From: a virus
Taxonomy: Duplodnaviria; Caudoviricetes
Reading direction: 5' to 3' (one strand)
Length of the DNA: 64,000 bases
IMG/VR virus record: IMGVR_UViG_3300031420_000495
Span: 193,407-257,406 of that record
In this document: positions 23,849 through 27,409 of the stretch, in pieces
How positions within the stretch are numbered: the first letter of the stretch is position 1
Layout: each line of letters starts with the position of its first letter
Made by a program: the position numbers and the translations under genes
The notes under the pieces: model-generated
Database searches by the model: none
Seen by the model: the letters and a program-made list of their open reading frames with translations, nothing else
Told to the model about the DNA's origin: nothing

Positions 23849-23921
23849 TGGCAAGGGTGGAGAGAATCGAACTCTCCGCAGCGCGGTTCAAAGCCGCGTG
23901 CAATCACCAGATCGCACCCCA
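23849..23921 (-). tRNA. tRNA-Gln(TTG), minimal D-arm
   Basis: Loop CT-TTG-AA; T1.T72 mismatch; 16-nt acceptor-to-anticodon linker. Confidence 0.8.
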
Positions 23922-23927
23922 ACTGAT

Positions 23928-23997
23928 TGGCAAGTCAACACGGAATCGAACCGTGCCTAACGGGTTTGGAGCCCGTCGTCATCCCAGATGCTGACCC
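23928..23997 (-). tRNA. tRNA-Trp(CCA), 70 nt, very small D-arm
   Basis: Loop CT-CCA-AA; D hairpin CATC-TGG-GATG. Confidence 0.78.
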
Positions 23998-24002
23998 ATT
24001 GT

Positions 24003-24179
24003 TTATTCGTCGACGAGTTCGAACTCGCCTGCTTCTACCTTGTCCAGCATCAGGTTGATCTGTCGCGCGATGTCCTCAGCGCTGACATTCGGATTGCTGC
24101 CCAACGTAAAGCCGATATTCTTTACTTCCAGCGAACCAGGTCCGAAAAGACGCTTGGTGGCTTTTTCCATTTCAGTCAT
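24003..24179 (-). CDS. Small hypothetical protein inside the tRNA array
   Basis: Start trimmed to MTEMEK behind AAGGA. Confidence 0.65.
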   Translation of the reverse strand: MTEMEKATKRLFGPGSLEVKNIGFTLGSNPNVSAEDIARQINLMLDKVEAGEFELVDE

Positions 24180-24202
24180 ACAAAGTCCTTTCAAAGTTAT
24201 AC

Positions 24203-24276
24203 TGGTGGAGAGGGATGTTTTCGAGACACCGACGCACCTGTCCCCCAGGCCGCTCTACCAACTGAGCTACCTCTCC
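24203..24276 (-). tRNA. tRNA-like gene with 5-nt anticodon loop (GGGGA); pseudo-tRNA or mimic
   Basis: Perfect acceptor and D arms and CCA; anticodon arm 2 nt short; T-loop CTCGAAA. Confidence 0.65.
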
Positions 24277-24281
24277 ATGTT

Positions 24282-24355
24282 TGGTGCCCAAGTGCGGAAT
24301 CGGACCGCATTCTCTTCCGTACCAAGGAAGTGTACTGCCATTGTACTACGAGGGC
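24282..24355 (-). tRNA. tRNA-Thr(GGT)
   Basis: Loop TT-GGT-AC; CCA. Confidence 0.92.
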
Positions 24356-24361
24356 GATGTT

Positions 24362-24489
24362 TGGTGCCGACGGCTGGATTCGAACCAAGCCCTAGTCTTT
24401 TCGTAGAAGATAACCGTTCACTGACGGTCACATTGCTGCGACAAAACTTGTAAACGACGTTTCTGTGCTGTCCACTACACTACGTCGGC
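24362..24489 (-). tRNA. 128-nt tRNA-like RNA with a multi-hairpin insertion and two anticodon-like loops (TAC, ACG)
   Basis: GCCGACG/CGTCGGC acceptor, normal D arm, TTCGAAT T-loop and CCA; about 55 extra nt between D and T arms. Confidence 0.75.
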
Positions 24490-24495
24490 ATTGTT

Positions 24496-24570
24496 TGGTC
24501 GTGACGGGCGGAATCGAACCGCCTTGATACACCTTATGAGGGTGGCGCATTGCCTTAATGCTACGTCACG
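24496..24570 (-). tRNA. tRNA-Met(CAT) (elongator; Ile2 not excluded)
   Basis: Loop CT-CAT-AA; paired 1-72. Confidence 0.88.
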
Positions 24571-24582
24571 GTAAAAGTACTT

Positions 24583-24656
24583 TGGGGTGACCGACGGGAA
24601 TCGAACCCGCGCTATCTCCGTCACAAGGAGAGTTGCTACCATTACAACACGGTCAC
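24583..24656 (-). tRNA. tRNA-His(GTG), no genomic G-1
   Basis: Loop TT-GTG-AC; C73; position -1 is T. Confidence 0.88.
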
Positions 24657-24668
24657 ACTAAAATACTC

Positions 24669-24821
24669 TCAGTCTTTCTTCTGTTCAATCTTCTCGATTG
24701 CTTCAACGAGTTGATCGTAATACTTTGTCATCTTGGCATGTTGCACTGAATCAGAAAATTTTCCATAATTGCAGCACTCCATTTGAAATCGGTCCAGCAA
24801 GCGTTTGATGTTTTGGTCCAT
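24669..24821 (-). CDS. Small hypothetical protein inside the tRNA array
   Basis: MDQNIKRLLDRF... 50 aa. Confidence 0.55.
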   Translation of the reverse strand: MDQNIKRLLDRFQMECCNYGKFSDSVQHAKMTKYYDQLVEAIEKIEQKKD

Positions 24822-24836
24822 GATGATCTTTGTAAA

Positions 24837-24923
24837 TGGTGGGCGCACAGAGAATCGAACTCTGTCTGGACTTTCGTCTCGGCGGGTTAAAAGCCCGCTT
24901 CCTACCCATTTGGAACTACGCCC
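24837..24923 (-). tRNA. tRNA-Lys(TTT) with long variable arm
   Basis: Loop CT-TTT-AA; 17-nt V region with GAC-GAAA-GTC; 3-bp D stem. Confidence 0.85.
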
Positions 24924-24930
24924 GTTAGGT

Positions 24931-25006
24931 TGGTGGGTGCGGTGGGAGTCGAACCCACAACCTAACGGGTAAAAGCCGTTTGCTCTGCCAGTTGAGCTAC
25001 ACACCC
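24931..25006 (-). tRNA. tRNA-Lys(TTT), canonical
   Basis: Loop CT-TTT-AC. Confidence 0.95.
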
Positions 25007-25062
25007 ATAAGTTTGTCACATTTGTCACTAGACATGACAGTCACTCCTTATGGTTAATAATC

Positions 25063-25137
25063 TGGACCCACCTACAGGAATCGAACCTGTGTCTTCGCGT
25101 TCGTAGCGCAATGCAATATCCACTATACTAAGGTGAG
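25063..25137 (-). tRNA. tRNA-Arg(ACG), canonical
   Basis: Loop CT-ACG-AA. Confidence 0.92.
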
Positions 25138-25143
25138 TATGTT

Positions 25144-25219
25144 TGGTGCCGCCTACTGGTTACGATCCAGTCCCTCTTGCTTTTCAGGCAAGCGCTTCCA
25201 CCAGGTTAGCTTAAGCGGC
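25144..25219 (-). tRNA. tRNA-Phe(GAA), atypical T-loop ATCGTAA
   Basis: Loop CT-GAA-AA; A8. Confidence 0.85.
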
Positions 25220-25225
25220 AATGTT

Positions 25226-25299
25226 TGGCGACTCGTAGGGGAATCGGACCCCTTTCTTACCCTGGACAGGGGTAGGTAATACCAATATACGAACGAGCC
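25226..25299 (-). tRNA. tRNA-Asp(GTC)
   Basis: Loop CT-GTC-CA; G73. Confidence 0.92.
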
Positions 25300-25950: not shown

Positions 25951-26035
25951 TGGAGTTCCGCGGGGGAATCGAACCCCAGTCCTGAGGACGTCGCCTTGAA
26001 AGGGCGAGGACAGTTACCAGCCGTCATCGCGGAAC
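25951..26035 (-). tRNA. tRNA-Glu(TTC) with long variable arm
   Basis: Loop CT-TTC-AA; V hairpin GTCC-TCA-GGAC. Confidence 0.85.
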
Positions 26036-26041
26036 AGTGTT

Positions 26042-26116
26042 TGGCGGAAATGACGGGATTCGAACCCGCGCAAGTCTGATCGACAATCAGGTGCTCTACC
26101 ACTGAGCTACATCTCC
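26042..26116 (-). tRNA. tRNA-Asp(GTC), canonical
   Basis: Loop TT-GTC-GA; G73. Confidence 0.93.
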
Positions 26117-26122
26117 GTTGTT

Positions 26123-26205
26123 TGGTATTCCTAGGGAGAATCGAACTCCTTGCCTAAGCGTCCGGTTGAAAGCCGGATGACAGTCACCAACCGTCAACTA
26201 GGAAT
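26123..26205 (-). tRNA. tRNA-Glu(TTC) with extended variable arm
   Basis: Loop CT-TTC-AA; 10-nt V region. Confidence 0.85.
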
Positions 26206-26212
26206 ATTGTTT

Positions 26213-26287
26213 TGGTGGGGCGCCGCAGAATCGAACTGCGCTCTCTCCGGTTAAGAGCCGGGACTTCGCCAGCAAAGTTTGCACCCC
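26213..26287 (-). tRNA. tRNA-Lys(CTT)
   Basis: Loop CT-CTT-AA; A8. Confidence 0.87.
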
Positions 26288-26292
26288 ATGTT

Positions 26293-26367
26293 TGGTATCG
26301 CCGAGGAGAATCGAACTCCCGTTCCCAGATTGAAAGTCTAGTGTCCTAACCGTTAGACGACGGCGAT
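26293..26367 (-). tRNA. tRNA-Glu(TTC), canonical
   Basis: Loop CT-TTC-AA. Confidence 0.93.
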
Positions 26368-26374
26368 ATAATTC

Positions 26375-26447
26375 TGGTACCACCGGCAGGAGTCGAGCCT
26401 GCGTAATCGCGCTTCGTAGGCGCAACACCGAATCCCTCGGCGGTGGT
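26375..26447 (-). tRNA. tRNA-Arg(ACG), minimal D-arm
   Basis: Loop CT-ACG-AA; D region CCGAGGGATTCGG; T-loop CTCGACT. Confidence 0.8.
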
Positions 26448-26454
26448 ATAATTC

Positions 26455-26781
26455 TTATGCAGCTACACGATCAGGTTTCTGTGCATCGAGCATTTCGATA
26501 TACGCGTGCGGCGAAGTGCCGACATCCAGCGTATGAATTTTCTCGAAGCCGTTTTCCTTCGTAATCATCGAGTCTTTCGACTTGATGCCGCCAGTGTACT
26601 TGCCGTCGCCTTTCTTGTGCATCAGATCGCCGGAAGCCGGATCGATCGAACCCCAATCAGGGGTGTGTGCATCAGCGAGAACTTCGACGTAGTACTTTGC
26701 ACCAGTGCGGATTGATGATACAATGAAGCGTCCGGTTTCGTCAGTGTTCGTGAGGAATCGTTTGGTGAAGTCGGCGTTCAT
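26455..26781 (-). CDS. Hypothetical protein inside the tRNA array
   Basis: Start trimmed to MNADFTKRF behind AGGAG. Confidence 0.8.
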   Translation of the reverse strand: MNADFTKRFLTNTDETGRFIVSSIRTGAKYYVEVLADAHTPDWGSIDPASGDLMHKKGDGKYTGGIKSKDSMITKENGFEKIHTLDVGTSPHAYIEMLDAQKPDRVAA

Positions 26782-26811
26782 GGTGTATCTCCTGCTCTGG
26801 TTATGGGTAAT

Positions 26812-26884
26812 TGGCAACCGCGTAGAGAATCGAACTCTATCCAATTTCGCTCAGAACGAAACGTGCCTGCCAAGGCTCACGGCA
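26812..26884 (-). tRNA. tRNA-Gln(CTG), minimal D-arm
   Basis: Loop TT-CTG-AG; T1.T72; D hairpin GCCT-TGGC-AGGC. Confidence 0.8.
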
Positions 26885-26890
26885 TCTGTT

Positions 26891-26982
26891 TGGCTCCCCG
26901 AGGTGGACTCGAACCACCATAACCGCCGAAGCGGTATACGTCTGATTAACAGTCAGGTCTCTTACCATTAGAGTACCGGGGA
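26891..26982 (-). tRNA. tRNA-Asn(GTT) with 22-nt variable arm
   Basis: Loop CT-GTT-AA; V hairpin ACCGC-TTCG-GCGGT. Confidence 0.85.
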
Positions 26983-26990
26983 ATTGTTAC

Positions 26991-27075
26991 TGGTCGTTGG
27001 GGTAGGAATTGAACCTACGTTGTCAATAATGACCTGGATTATCGGTCCAGTGCCTAACCATTCGGCCACCCAACG
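26991..27075 (-). tRNA. tRNA-Ile(GAT) with long variable arm and C33
   Basis: Loop CC-GAT-AA; Leu-like 3-bp D stem; 15-nt V region; A73. Confidence 0.82.
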
Positions 27076-27086
27076 ATATGTTTAGA

Positions 27087-27169
27087 TTCTTCGACAAATG
27101 CCCGAGGGCGTGCGGTTACAAGGGGGAATCGTAAAAGGATAACCTTGTGATTGCGAAGCGGTCAAAGAA
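27087..27169 (-). ncRNA. Y-RNA-like ncRNA inside the tRNA array
   Basis: TTCTTTGAC-C-G / T-GTCGAAGAA end helix; ACAAGG/CCTTGT stem with pyrimidine-rich loop; GGTTATCC motif shared with 2018-2101. Confidence 0.6.
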
Positions 27170-27173
27170 AACT

Positions 27174-27247
27174 TGGAAGGGGAGGATGGAATCGAACCAT
27201 CGCACTCTGGGTCAAAACCAGATGCTCTACCACTAAGCTACACCCCT
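27174..27247 (-). tRNA. tRNA-Gln(TTG), canonical size
   Basis: Loop TT-TTG-AC. Confidence 0.9.
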
Positions 27248-27254
27248 ATTGTAC

Positions 27255-27328
27255 TGGTCCTTCGTGGTGGAATCGGACCACCGTATCTCGCCTATCAAGC
27301 GAGGGTTCTACCATTGAACTAACGAAGG
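27255..27328 (-). tRNA. tRNA-Ile(GAT), canonical
   Basis: Loop TT-GAT-AG. Confidence 0.92.
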
Positions 27329-27335
27329 AATGTTC

Positions 27336-27409
27336 TGGCAGGCCATCAGGGAATCGAACCCCAGTCAAGAGTTTTGGAGACTCGTGTGTTACCACTACAC
27401 CAATGACCT
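27336..27409 (-). tRNA. tRNA-Trp(CCA), canonical; first tRNA of the array
   Basis: Loop CT-CCA-AA; G73. Confidence 0.93.

What the first reader, a model, noticed from the sequence alone, without database searches (positions are those of the whole stretch)
23849..27409. tRNA array built as canonical plus structurally deviant isoacceptor sets
Seen: 29 tRNA or tRNA-like genes cover only 12 amino acids (Q, W, T, M, H, K, R, F, D, N, E, I). Ala, Leu, Ser, Tyr, Gly, Pro and Cys are absent. The same anticodon recurs in different bodies: Lys TTT normal and long-V; Asp GTC two normal and one long-V; Glu TTC one normal and two long-V; Asn GTT normal, odd-D and long-V; Ile GAT normal and long-V; Gln TTG, Trp and Arg ACG each normal and minimal-D; Phe with two T-loop types. 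Established: these specificities overlap known anticodon-nuclease targets (PrrC and PARIS on Lys; RloC on Glu/Lys/Gln; colicin E5 on His/Asn/Asp; colicin D on Arg). Inference: structural bet-hedging against tRNA-cutting immunity rather than codon-usage compensation.
Basis: partly seen in the sequence, partly recalled or inferred. Interest (0 to 1): 0.75.

Follow-up and report, generated by a model that had tools for sequence, protein, structure and literature searches.

The report
Phage tRNA array with odd-shaped duplicates
A giant phage carries 26 tRNA genes for only 12 amino acids, and for most of them keeps a normal-looking tRNA beside one or two oddly built but evolutionarily conserved versions, which most likely act as spare tRNAs that bacterial tRNA-cutting defences cannot recognise.

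Summary
Window 23849-27409 (minus strand) has 26 ARAGORN tRNA genes plus 3 tRNA-like genes, for 12 amino acids only. All 26 encode CCA.

The deviant bodies are real:
- hairpin-bearing variable arms on Lys, Asn, Ile, Asp and Glu tRNAs;
- two tRNA-Glu with 8/4 acceptor/T geometry;
- Sec-like or reduced D arms (Gln, Asp, Arg, Trp);
- an A54:U58 T-loop (Phe);
- pyrimidine-37 (Asp);
- a His without G-1.

Most are not decaying copies. They have orthologs with compensatory stem changes in tRNA arrays of other uncultivated jumbo phages. The long-V Asn family occurs on 13 contigs, with 100% of stem positions paired. Same-anticodon paralogs here are as unlike each other as unrelated tRNAs.

Gene copy number does not follow the phage's amino-acid use. 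Single-codon Trp has two genes, so synonymous-codon compensation explains little.

Evasion of tRNA-cutting immunity is the best reading. It fits the linked RNA ligase, CCA-adding enzyme and Ro60 genes, but it is untested: host, expression and charging are unknown.

Long-armed phage tRNAs were noted earlier in this scan on other DNA. I found them in no paper; Mukai 2017 reports only 8/4 Ser/His tRNAs in phages.

The parts
27336..27409 (-). tRNA-Trp(CCA), canonical
   Evidence: ARAGORN 118, Rfam 57.2 bits
27255..27328 (-). tRNA-Ile(GAU), canonical
   Evidence: Rfam 61.1 bits
27174..27247 (-). tRNA-Gln(UUG), canonical
   Evidence: Rfam 68.1 bits
26991..27075 (-). tRNA-Ile(GAU), 85 nt. It has a 15-nt variable arm (4-bp hairpin), a class-II-like 3-bp D stem, C33 in place of U33, and A73.
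   Evidence: The ortholog L006:2608-2690 is 81% identical, has a GUC-GAAA-GAC hairpin and has U33.
26891..26982 (-). tRNA-Asn(GUU), 92 nt, with a 22-nt variable arm (5-bp stem plus UUCG loop)
   Evidence: Family of 13 contigs: 100% of cells paired, 10 of 20 pairs changed on both sides, 0/500 shuffles reach this.
26812..26884 (-). tRNA-Gln(CUG) with a 1-nt connector, 3-bp D stem, 6-bp anticodon stem, U1.U72 mismatch and G73
   Evidence: ortholog L006:3755-3827 with compensatory changes.
26375..26444 (-). tRNA-Arg(ACG), 70 nt. The D arm is reduced to an 11-12-nt connector and the anticodon stem has 6 bp.
   Evidence: ortholog L008:5471-5539 with compensatory changes in three stems.
26293..26367 (-). 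tRNA-Glu(UUC), canonical
   Evidence: Rfam 61.7 bits
26213..26287 (-). tRNA-Lys(CUU) with A8 A9. It gave no Rfam hit.
   Evidence: orthologs in L006 and L010 are 89-91% identical, with compensated acceptor and T stems.
26123..26205 (-). tRNA-Glu(UUC), 83 nt: 8-bp acceptor, 4-bp T stem, 11-nt variable region
   Evidence: Alignment A3: the 8th pair covaries and the acceptor is 100% paired.
26042..26116 (-). tRNA-Asp(GUC), canonical
   Evidence: Rfam 68.1 bits
25951..26035 (-). tRNA-Glu(UUC), 85 nt: 8/4 geometry, 13-nt variable arm (4-bp hairpin), U73
   Evidence: Best Rfam match is tRNA-Sec at 39.3 bits. Orthologs at L002:10968-11052 and L014:3635-3723.
25859..25942 (-). tRNA-Asp(GUC), 84 nt: 13-nt variable region, D arm of 6 bp plus tetraloop
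   Evidence: No ortholog found in the fetched loci.
25557..25632 (-). tRNA-Phe(GAA), T loop UUCGAAA
   Evidence: Rfam 59.9 bits
25473..25550 (-). tRNA-Asn(GUU), 78 nt, irregular D arm
   Evidence: orthologs in L008 and L012 are 81-82% identical.
25390..25465 (-). tRNA-Asn(GUU), canonical
   Evidence: Rfam 63.9 bits
25303..25378 (-). tRNA-like gene with an 8-nt anticodon loop and no CCA; probably not a decoder
   Evidence: ARAGORN at lowered threshold, score 94; fold z = -3.4; no homolog in the loci.
25226..25299 (-). tRNA-Asp(GUC) with C37
   Evidence: ortholog L010:5183-5256 is 86% identical and has U37.
25144..25219 (-). tRNA-Phe(GAA) with T loop AUCGUAA (A54, U58)
   Evidence: A54 is kept in the orthologs in L006 and L014.
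25063..25137 (-). tRNA-Arg(ACG), canonical
   Evidence: Rfam 52.1 bits
24931..25006 (-). tRNA-Lys(UUU), canonical body, C38 C39 G41
   Evidence: Rfam 70.7 bits
24837..24923 (-). tRNA-Lys(UUU), 87 nt, 17-nt variable arm (GAC-GAAA-GUC)
   Evidence: Rfam 41.4 bits. L007:36-123 has the same architecture with UGC-GAAA-GCA.
24583..24656 (-). tRNA-His(GUG) with C73 but U at position -1 (no G-1)
   Evidence: The His at 21757-21830 does have G-1, at 21831.
24496..24570 (-). tRNA-Met(CAU), elongator type; an Ile2 identity is not excluded
   Evidence: Rfam 54.1 bits. L014:5633-5715 is the same tRNA with a GUCGAAAGAC hairpin added in the variable loop.
24362..24490 (-). Conserved 129-nt tRNA-like RNA. It has an acceptor stem, D arm, T arm and A73-CCA, with a ~55-nt helix in place of the anticodon arm.
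   Evidence: Rfam tRNA 31.9 bits. Conserved in L014 and L010 with compensated acceptor stems. The GACCG..CGGUUAUC module is shared with 27087-27169 and 2018-2101.
24282..24355 (-). tRNA-Thr(GGU), two acceptor mismatches
   Evidence: Rfam 51.3 bits
24203..24276 (-). tRNA-like gene with intact acceptor, D arm and CCA, a 5-nt anticodon loop and T loop CUCGAAA; probably decayed
   Evidence: only the D arm matches elsewhere.
23928..24005 (-). tRNA-Trp(CCA), about 70 nt if it starts at 23997. D arm of 4 bp with a 3-nt loop and no connector; three G.U pairs in the acceptor. Functional status uncertain.
   Evidence: Rfam 26.3 bits; fold z = -0.24; no ortholog.
23849..23921 (-). tRNA-Gln(UUG) with a Sec-like D arm (6 bp plus tetraloop), U1.U72 and G73
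   Evidence: Best Rfam match is tRNA-Sec at 33.8 bits; fold z = -3.2; orthologs in L013 and L006.
26455..26781 (-). 108-aa ORF inside the array, a marker of such arrays
   Evidence: 15 homologous loci, 13 of them inside tRNA arrays; no Pfam, PHROG or PDB fold match.
25619..25846 (-). 75-aa ORF (phrog_20427), which lies next to the 108-aa ORF in other phages
27704..27826 (-). 40-codon upstream ORF. 35 of its 40 residues come from the 12 amino acids the array serves.

Best explanation
The locus is one polycistronic tRNA operon of a PaBG-like jumbo phage from a leaf-surface metagenome. It supplies decoders for the split-codon-box amino acids (Lys, Glu, Gln, Asn, Asp, His, Phe, Ile, Met, Trp) plus Thr and Arg.

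Shown: for most of these amino acids the phage keeps two or three isoacceptors with the same anticodon and the same acceptor-end identity nucleotides but different bodies. The bodies differ by a variable-arm hairpin, 8/4 acceptor/T geometry, a remodelled or reduced D arm, an A54:U58 T loop, or changes at positions 32/33/37/38-41. These bodies are separate, old lineages held under structural selection in several uncultivated jumbo phages.

Inferred: all are charged by the host's cognate synthetases, because the phage record encodes no Asp/Asn/Lys or Glu/Gln synthetase. They serve as replacement tRNAs when host tRNAs for these codons are destroyed by defence tRNases. Different bodies escape nucleases that read different parts of the tRNA. 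For example, an arm emerging at positions 44-48 could block an enzyme that cuts the neighbouring 40/41 bond, as PARIS AriB does. The linked RNA ligase, CCA-adding enzyme and Ro60/Y-RNA genes, and an upstream mini-ORF written in the same 12 amino acids, would belong to the same tRNA-maintenance programme.
For: - The array and its structures are real.
- Ancient paralogy: same-anticodon copies here are 0.50-0.72 identical, no more than unrelated tRNAs (0.57 +/- 0.13). Orthologs in other phages are 0.79-0.92 identical.
- Structural selection, long-V Asn family: 260/260 cells paired, 10 pairs with double-sided changes, 0/500 shuffles reach this, and the variable-arm stems covary.
- Structural selection, 8/4 Glu family: 97.6% of cells paired, 7 of 8 acceptor pairs compensated, and a 7/5 reading is impossible in 3 of 4 members.
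- Pairwise compensation is also seen for Arg, Gln, Lys(CUU), Asp, Phe, Ile and Lys.
- Discriminator and first acceptor pairs are shared between canonical and deviant copies for Lys, Asn, Asp, Ile, Glu and Phe.
- The long-V Asn motif is phage-only: 13 viral contigs, against one phage-like contig among 185,579 species genomes.
- Demand does not explain the set.
- Context genes: RNA ligase, CCA-adding enzyme, YqeY and TROVE. No aaRS was found.
- Both Lys(UUU) copies differ from E. coli tRNA-Lys at positions 39 and 41, the two positions whose change makes T5 tRNA-Lys AriB-resistant (PMC12409363).
- Precedents for phage tRNAs as counter-defence: PMC11464382, PMC11555353, PMC10264068.
Against: - There is no evidence of expression, processing, charging or nuclease resistance; no RNA run holds the locus.
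- The host and its defence systems are unknown.
- Known anticodon nucleases such as PrrC and colicins E5 and D mainly read the anticodon stem-loop (my recollection, not checked here), where a variable arm or 8/4 geometry may not matter.
- The long-V Asn family keeps the sequence U36-A-A-U-C-A41, identical to the AriB site of E. coli tRNA-Lys. This fits shielding only if the arm really protects.
- Some members look defective: C33 in the long-V Ile, no G-1 in the array His, a weak acceptor in the minimal-D Trp, and two tRNA-like genes without a 7-nt loop.
- The enrichment of long arms in split-box tRNAs is marginal (Fisher p = 0.05).
Confidence: 0.45

Rival explanations
1. Supply without conflict. 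The array only boosts or prolongs translation, either as codon or amino-acid compensation relative to the host or as replacement of host tRNAs lost when the phage itself degrades host nucleic acids late in infection. The odd bodies are neutral or nearly neutral variation that host synthetases and ribosomes tolerate.
For: - Phage tRNAs as late-infection support when the host machinery decays: Yang et al. 2021, as cited in PMC11025619.
- The phage uses GAA 74%, CAA 52% and AAA 44%. That could exceed a GC-rich host's usage and would justify the UUC/UUG/UUU tRNAs.
- All copies keep cognate identity nucleotides.
Against: - Copy number does not follow usage (rho = -0.14): Trp (one codon, 1.3% of residues) has two genes, His (1.9%) has three, and Ala/Leu/Gly/Val have none.
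- Extra dosage would be met by similar duplicates. Instead, unlike bodies are each conserved across phages with compensatory changes and invariant arm flanks.
Confidence: 0.25
2. Some deviant members are not decoders. They would be tRNA mimics that act as decoys or inhibitors of tRNases, as ligands of the phage Ro60/RNA-repair machinery, or as processing or regulatory elements of the operon.
For: - 24362-24490 is a conserved tRNA-like RNA with no anticodon loop. It carries the GACCG..CGGUUAUC module also present in two Y-RNA-like candidates, and a TROVE/Ro60 gene lies in the window.
- PMC12409363 raises the possibility that overexpressed viral tRNAs inhibit AriB.
- The long-V Asn family keeps an AriB-like site.
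- Mukai et al. found irregular tRNAs that were charged but not used in translation (PMC5389517).
Against: - 26 of the 29 genes keep a 7-nt anticodon loop with an intact anticodon, and 25 of those 26 keep U33 (the long-V Ile has C33); all 26 encode CCA, and most share acceptor-end identity nucleotides with their canonical partner.
- In several related arrays the long-V Asn is the only Asn tRNA found within the locus fetched, as expected of a working decoder.
Confidence: 0.15
3. Recoding. Long-armed or 8/4 bodies are charged by SerRS or LeuRS, which largely ignore the anticodon, so that Lys/Asn/Glu/Ile/Asp codons are partly read as Ser or Leu.
For: [quoted passage not shown]
- Allo-tRNAs with non-Ser anticodons exist (PMC5389517).
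- The long-V Asn and Asp have G73.
Against: - The arms are short (3-5 bp).
- Discriminators match the cognate amino acid in every pair; the 8/4 Glu tRNAs have A73 or U73, not G73.
- Canonical isoacceptors for the same codons sit beside them, so the outcome would be random mistranslation of the phage's own proteins.
- U1-A72, C2-G71 and C3-G70 stay invariant or nearly so across the 13-member long-V Asn family; as I recall, these match bacterial tRNA-Asn.
Confidence: 0.05
4. Decay. The odd genes are pseudogenes left by duplication.
For: 24203-24276 and 25303-25378 have abnormal loops and no homologs. The minimal-D Trp and the long-V Asp have no orthologs in the loci fetched. The long-V Ile has C33 where its ortholog has U33.
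Against: Most deviants have orthologs with compensatory substitutions and intact loops and CCA. No paralog pair is similar enough to be a recent duplicate.
Confidence: 0.1

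Closest known systems
Phage tRNA gene clusters used as counter-defence (T5 tRNA-Lys/Thr/Asn versus PARIS AriB; T5 tRNA-Tyr versus retron PtuAB; mycobacteriophage C1 arrays)
   Same: A tandem, same-strand tRNA cluster in a large lytic-type phage. Its specificities overlap known tRNase targets (Lys, Asn, Thr, Asp, His, Arg, Glu, Gln). There are substitutions at anticodon-arm positions 38-41 relative to E. 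coli tRNA-Lys.
   Different: In the published cases escape rests on point changes in an otherwise canonical body, with one copy per anticodon. Here two or three bodies per anticodon differ in whole-arm architecture. Resistance is untested here.
allo-tRNAs and (8/4) tRNA-Ser / tRNA-His of bacteria and alpha-proteobacterial phages (Mukai et al. 2017, PMC5389517)
   Same: A 12-bp acceptor branch split 8/4, a long variable arm, best Rfam fit to tRNA-Sec, occurrence in phage tRNA clusters, and Sec-like 6-bp D stems in two other members (Gln, Asp).
   Different: The 8/4 members here carry the Glu anticodon UUC, A73 or U73 instead of G73, a normal 4-bp D stem with a GG loop, a 5-bp anticodon stem and only a 3-4-bp variable hairpin. 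The paper's text, searched for 'tRNAGlu' and 'glutam', does not mention Glu.
Class II tRNAs (Leu, Ser, Tyr, Sec) and nematode nev-tRNAs
   Same: A variable arm of 11-22 nt forming a hairpin. The long-V Ile also has the 3-bp D stem typical of class II.
   Different: The anticodons and discriminators are those of Lys, Asn, Asp, Glu and Ile. The arms are shorter and often GNRA- or UUCG-capped. A Met ortholog pair differs only by the inserted hairpin, which shows gain or loss on a class I body. The nev-tRNA comparison is from memory.
Long tRNA arrays of bacteria and mycobacteria-type 'tRNA array units'
   Same: Dozens of tightly spaced tRNA genes interspersed with small ORFs and linked to RNA-repair genes.
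   Different: Those arrays usually cover all 20 amino acids. This one covers 12 and duplicates them in unlike bodies. I did not check this comparison in the literature here; it rests on an earlier scan note (e1-2076419) and on memory.

Membership tests
Phage tRNA gene array | Many tRNA genes in tandem on one strand of a phage genome | tested here: met
   26 genes in 3.56 kb, all on the minus strand, with spacers mostly 6-8 nt. The record carries a tail sheath gene 43.6% identical to that of phage PaBG.
Phage tRNA gene array | Genes fold as cloverleaves with a 7-nt anticodon loop and a T arm | tested here: met
   All 26 do; the 3 extra tRNA-like genes do not.
allo-tRNA / (8/4) tRNA (Mukai 2017) | 8-bp acceptor stem with a 4-bp T stem | tested here: met
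   Glu 25951 and Glu 26123: the 8th pair covaries (GC in 3, AU in 1), and a 5th T-stem pair is impossible in 3 of 4 family members.
allo-tRNA / (8/4) tRNA (Mukai 2017) | Long variable arm | tested here: met
   11-13 nt here and 13-18 nt in the orthologs, with stems of only 2-4 bp.
allo-tRNA / (8/4) tRNA (Mukai 2017) | Sec-like D arm (long stem plus tetraloop) and lengthened anticodon stem | tested here: not met
   The 8/4 Glu tRNAs have a 4-bp D stem, a 7-9-nt loop containing GG, and a 5-bp anticodon stem. A 6-bp D stem with a tetraloop occurs instead in Gln 23849 and Asp 25859.
allo-tRNA / (8/4) tRNA (Mukai 2017) | Serine identity (G73, charged by SerRS) | tested here: not met
   The discriminator is U73 or A73. 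Charging itself cannot be tested with these tools.
Class II tRNA (Leu/Ser/Tyr) | Variable arm of more than 10 nt forming a stem-loop | tested here: met
   Lys 17 nt, Asn 22, Ile 15, Asp 13, Glu 11 and 13.
Class II tRNA (Leu/Ser/Tyr) | Leu, Ser or Tyr anticodon | tested here: not met
   The anticodons are UUU, GUU, GAU, GUC and UUC.
Counter-defence phage tRNA (T5 tRNA-Lys type) | Sequence change at the nuclease's recognition or cleavage site relative to the host tRNA | tested here: inconclusive
   Both Lys(UUU) copies differ from E. coli tRNA-Lys at positions 39 and 41 (PMC12409363). The real host tRNA is unknown, and the long-V Asn keeps U36-A-A-U-C-A41.
Counter-defence phage tRNA (T5 tRNA-Lys type) | Resists cleavage and rescues infection or toxicity | not testable with these tools
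   Needs cleavage and plating assays.

The most novel reading that the evidence does not exclude
Jumbo phages have evolved a repertoire of 'armoured' tRNA bodies: GNRA- or UUCG-capped hairpins inserted in the variable loop of class I tRNAs, 8/4 helix repartition, D-arm reduction and A54:U58 T loops. These remain substrates of host synthetases and ribosomes but cannot be seen by defence nucleases that recognise tRNA shape. Each phage carries several armours per anticodon as a hedge against the unknown defence set of the next host. The operon may be switched on by a leader peptide that senses loss of exactly these tRNAs.
Probability: 0.3. Interest if true: 0.85.

Novelty: new variant of a known kind. 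Interest (0 to 1): 0.66.

Why it matters
Phage tRNAs have only recently been shown to defeat tRNA-cutting immunity, and every proven case relies on point mutations. If whole-arm remodelling is a second, general escape route, three things follow.
- It would explain why large phages keep several unlike tRNAs for one codon.
- It would show which parts of a tRNA the defence nucleases read.
- It would define how far tRNA architecture can drift while still working with bacterial synthetases, EF-Tu and ribosomes.

The families found here are natural scaffolds for orthogonal or nuclease-proof tRNAs: long-V Asn/Lys/Ile/Met, 8/4 Glu, D-arm-reduced Arg and A54:U58 Phe. They are also mis-scored by standard tRNA models, so phage tRNA censuses undercount them.

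Tried and rejected
- **Relatives through the flanking C1 peptidase:** none in IMG/VR.
- **Nearest named phages:** PaBG has 5 tRNAs and NCTB has none, so they offer no comparison for the array.
- **GenBank phages:** megablast of the array and blastn of the long-V Asn, long-V Lys and 8/4 Glu found no homologs, only T-arm fragments.
- **Expression:** only two phyllosphere DNA runs hold the locus and no RNA run does. I did not use read laying, because contigs cannot show expression.
- **Host inference:** not achieved. The one genome-collection hit is a coverage-1 contig in a Pirellula MAG that looks like a mis-binned phage array.
- **Phage-encoded synthetases (PF00152, PF00749), RtcB and PNK:** none found.
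- **108-aa array ORF:** no Pfam or PHROG family. The AlphaFold model (pLDDT 76.8) has no PDB match with E <= 0.001, and the Atlas leads are weak beta-sandwich hits.
- **Introns:** ARAGORN's intron mode gave only spurious calls.
- **Serine or leucine recoding:** considered unlikely (see rival explanations).
- **Terminal repeats of the record:** none, so completeness is unresolved. 'Absent' amino acids therefore refer to the 257 kb held.
- **Literature searches:** no paper on long-armed class I tRNAs in phages.

Full report
**Where the window lies.** The window is the last 64 kb of a 257,406-bp IMG/VR virus record. It encodes a tail sheath that is 43.6% identical to that of Pseudomonas jumbo phage PaBG and 39.6% identical to that of 'Phage NCTB'. 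The only sequencing runs that hold the locus in full are two phyllosphere metagenomes. GC content is about 50% throughout.

**Checking the observation.**
- ARAGORN reports 29 tRNA genes in the window, all on the minus strand.
- No other tRNA occurs in the remaining 193 kb of the record.
  - 24203-24276 has a perfect acceptor stem, D arm and CCA but a 5-nt anticodon loop.
  - 25303-25378 has an 8-nt loop and no CCA.
  - 24362-24490 scores 31.9 bits on Rfam's tRNA model and has a long insertion.
- All 26 genes encode CCA and are mostly separated by 6-8-nt A-rich spacers. No terminator-like site on the coding strand interrupts the array apart from one that is simply the anticodon arm of a tRNA. 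Promoter-like sites lie upstream at 28160-28040. A single transcript is therefore plausible.
- The specificities are Gln, Trp, Thr, Met, His, Lys, Arg, Phe, Asp, Asn, Glu and Ile.

**Anatomy of the deviant genes.** Rfam's general tRNA model passes 16 of the 26 at its gathering score; a more sensitive scan adds the long-V Lys. The others are non-canonical in these ways:
- *Variable-arm hairpins on class I anticodons.* Lys(UUU) has 17 nt (GAC-GAAA-GUC), Asn(GUU) has 22 nt (5 bp plus UUCG), Ile(GAU) has 15 nt, Asp(GUC) has 13 nt, and the two Glu(UUC) have 11 and 13 nt.
- *8/4 geometry.* Both long-V Glu tRNAs have an 8-bp acceptor stem and a 4-bp T stem. One fits Rfam's tRNA-Sec model best (39.3 bits).
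- *D-arm remodelling.* Gln(UUG) 23849 and Asp 25859 have a Sec-like 6-bp D stem with a tetraloop. Gln(CUG) has a 3-bp stem and a 1-nt connector. Arg(ACG) 26375 has only an 11-12-nt connector in place of the D arm, plus a 6-bp anticodon stem. Trp 23928 has a 4-bp stem with a 3-nt loop.
- *T-loop change.* One Phe has AUCGUAA, that is A54 with U58.
- *Anticodon-loop changes.* One Asp has C37. The long-V Ile has C33.
- *His.* The array copy has U at -1 although it keeps C73. The His at 21757 has the usual G-1.

**Are the deviants functional genes or debris?**
- The 108-aa ORF inside the array (26455-26781) has homologs in 15 IMG/VR loci. Most of these loci come from contigs of 106-435 kb, and thirteen sit inside large tRNA arrays.
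- Two DNA-pattern scans added 14 more array loci.
- Orthologs of most deviants occur in these arrays at 79-92% identity. Same-anticodon paralogs within this window are only 50-72% identical, which is the level of unrelated tRNAs (0.57 +/- 0.13). The bodies are thus old, separately maintained lineages and not recent duplicates.
- The long-V Asn family was recovered from 13 distinct contigs. All 260 stem cells pair, 10 of 20 pairs show changes on both sides, and no shuffle out of 500 reaches this.
- Its extra arm is always a short hairpin whose stem covaries (ACCGC/GCGGU, CCGU/ACGG, GCC/GGC, GCU/AGC, GGC/GCC). In the larger subfamily the hairpin is usually capped by a GNRA loop and is flanked by invariant A-rich strands.
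- The 8/4 Glu family has four members in three phages. It is 97.6% paired, and 7 of its 8 acceptor pairs are compensated, including the eighth. In three members a fifth T-stem pair is impossible.
- Pairwise comparisons show compensatory changes for several other genes: the D-arm-reduced Arg, both short-D Gln, Lys(CUU), the pyrimidine-37 Asp (C37 here, U37 in the ortholog), the A54 Phe, and the long-V Ile and Lys.
- The Met tRNA of locus L014 equals this window's Met plus a GUCGAAAGAC hairpin in the variable loop. This shows directly that such hairpins are gained or lost on class I bodies.
- The same hairpin type recurs on Ile, Asn, Lys and Cys tRNAs of other phages.
- Four or five members remain doubtful. 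The tRNA-like genes at 24203 and 25303, the minimal-D Trp and the long-V Asp have no orthologs in the loci fetched. This window's long-V Ile carries C33 where its ortholog has U33.

**Who charges them?** The record has no Asp/Asn/Lys-type or Glu/Gln-type synthetase, so host enzymes must do it. Canonical and deviant copies share discriminator and terminal base pairs:
- Lys: G1-C72, G2-C71, G3-C70 and A73.
- Asn: U1-A72, C2-G71, C3-G70 and G73, invariant or nearly so across the 13-contig family.
- Asp: G73.
- Ile: C1-G72 and A73.
- Glu: A1-U72, U2-A71 and A73, except Glu 25951, which has G1-C72 and U73.
- Phe: A73.

This argues for cognate charging and against serine or leucine recoding, although only biochemistry can settle it.

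**Demand versus defence.** From 287 ORFs chosen by length and codon score (86% of the record), the most used residues are Ala, Leu, Gly, Thr and Val. Ala, Leu, Gly and Val make up 31% of residues and have no phage tRNA. Trp (1.3%, a single codon) has two genes and His (1.9%) has three. Gene number and residue use are uncorrelated (Spearman -0.14, p = 0.55). Synonymous-codon compensation cannot apply to Trp or Met. It also does not explain why unlike bodies, rather than plain copies, are kept. It stays possible for the UUU, UUC and UUG tRNAs if the host is GC-rich, because the host is unknown.

Several points favour a conflict reading:
- The set is essentially the split-codon-box tRNAs, which are the usual prey of anticodon nucleases. 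Published work shows that phage tRNAs neutralise PARIS and a retron nuclease, and proposes this as a general role (PMC11464382, PMC12409363, PMC11555353, PMC10264068).
- AriB cuts between positions 40 and 41 and also reads the D loop and other body parts (PMC12409363). Its targets are Lys(UUU), Thr(UGU/CGU) and Asn(GUU). The long arm emerges next to that bond.
- In the unbiased loci, long arms occur on Asn (7 of 23), Glu, Lys, Ile, Cys, Asp, Gln, His, Met and Thr. None occurs on the 35 Ala, Gly, Pro or Val tRNAs. The contrast is only marginal (Fisher p = 0.05).
- Both Lys(UUU) copies differ from E. coli tRNA-Lys at positions 39 and 41, the positions that make T5 tRNA-Lys resistant.
- The window also encodes an RNA ligase (35762-36889), a YqeY-domain protein (36810-37289), a CCA-adding enzyme (49390-50607), a metallophosphoesterase (52969-53919) and a TROVE/Ro60 protein (about 30-1667).
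- A 40-codon ORF just upstream of the array draws 35 of its 40 residues from the 12 served amino acids. I checked only its composition.

None of this demonstrates resistance. The long-V Asn family even keeps U36-A-A-U-C-A41, the AriB site of E. coli tRNA-Lys, which fits the idea only if the arm itself shields the site.

**Comparison with what is known.**
- Phage tRNA clusters and their anti-defence role are known.
- Mukai et al. (PMC5389517) described 8/4 and 9/3 allo-tRNAs and found 8/4 tRNA-Ser and tRNA-His in alpha-proteobacterial phages. The 8/4 Glu tRNAs here share that geometry but fail other allo-tRNA features: a Sec-like D arm, a 6-bp anticodon stem and G73.
- I found no paper describing hairpin-armed Lys, Asn, Ile, Met, Asp or Glu tRNAs in phages and no homolog in 50,697 GenBank phage records.
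- The long-V Asn motif occurs in only one of 185,579 species genomes, on a coverage-1 contig that is itself an 18-tRNA phage-like array.
- Earlier agents of this scan noted long-armed Lys (and Asn, Thr) tRNAs in Caulobacter and other phages on different DNA. So the class has been seen before within the scan. What this window adds is the side-by-side canonical and deviant sets, and several further architectures.

**Verdict.** The deviant isoacceptors are mostly real, conserved, phage-specific tRNA families. The defence-evasion reading is the best available (about 0.45) but untested. Plain supply comes second at 0.25, and decoy or Ro60-ligand roles for a subset third at 0.15. I class it as a new variant of a known kind, with interest 0.66.

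Noticed in passing
window 24362-24490 (-); L014:7201-7344; L010:6861-7010: A conserved ~129-nt tRNA-like RNA with a normal acceptor stem, D arm, T arm and A73-CCA. A ~55-nt helix replaces the anticodon arm. The helix carries a GACCG..CGGUUAUC module that is also present in the Y-RNA-like candidates at 27087-27169 and 2018-2101. It resembles a permuted YrlA-type (tRNA-like plus Ro-binding) RNA, and a TROVE/Ro60 gene lies in the same window.
   Followed up: partly
window 26455-26781 (-) and 25619-25846 (-): A 108-aa ORF and a 75-aa ORF (phrog_20427) form a conserved pair embedded in the tRNA arrays of at least 13 uncultivated jumbo phages. They have no known family or fold. Their fixed association with tRNA arrays suggests a tRNA-related role.
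   Followed up: partly
window 27704-27826 (-): An upstream 40-codon ORF is composed almost only of the 12 amino acids the array serves (35 of 40; no Leu, Ala, Ser or Tyr). I checked only the composition.
   Followed up: partly
window 35762-36889, 36810-37289, 49390-50607, 52969-53919, about 30-1667: A cluster of RNA-maintenance genes lies in the same 64 kb: an RNA ligase (PF09414, with an HNH-like N-terminus), a YqeY/GatB-tail domain protein, a CCA-adding enzyme, a calcineurin-like phosphoesterase and TROVE/Ro60. No RtcB or PNK match was found.
   Followed up: partly
L002, L008, L009, L013, L015, L020, L024, L026, L029, L033: The converse anomaly occurs in related arrays: 16 of 24 distinct tRNA-Leu genes have a short (class I) variable loop.
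   Followed up: no
L014:5633-5715 versus window 24496-24570: An ortholog pair of tRNA-Met differs essentially by one inserted GUCGAAAGAC hairpin in the variable loop. The identical hairpin sits in the long-V Ile of L006. Either minimal GNRA hairpins are inserted repeatedly, or they are selected for.
   Followed up: partly
L034 (JAUMAI010000012.1, binned as a Pirellula sp. MAG): A 10-kb contig of coverage ~1 carries 18 tRNA genes, including a long-V Asn and a long Gln. It is most likely a phage array mis-binned into the MAG.
   Followed up: no
window 40005-40844 (-), 22648-23529 (-): The phage encodes an NAD synthase (NadE) and a papain-family C1 peptidase close to the tRNA region.
   Followed up: no
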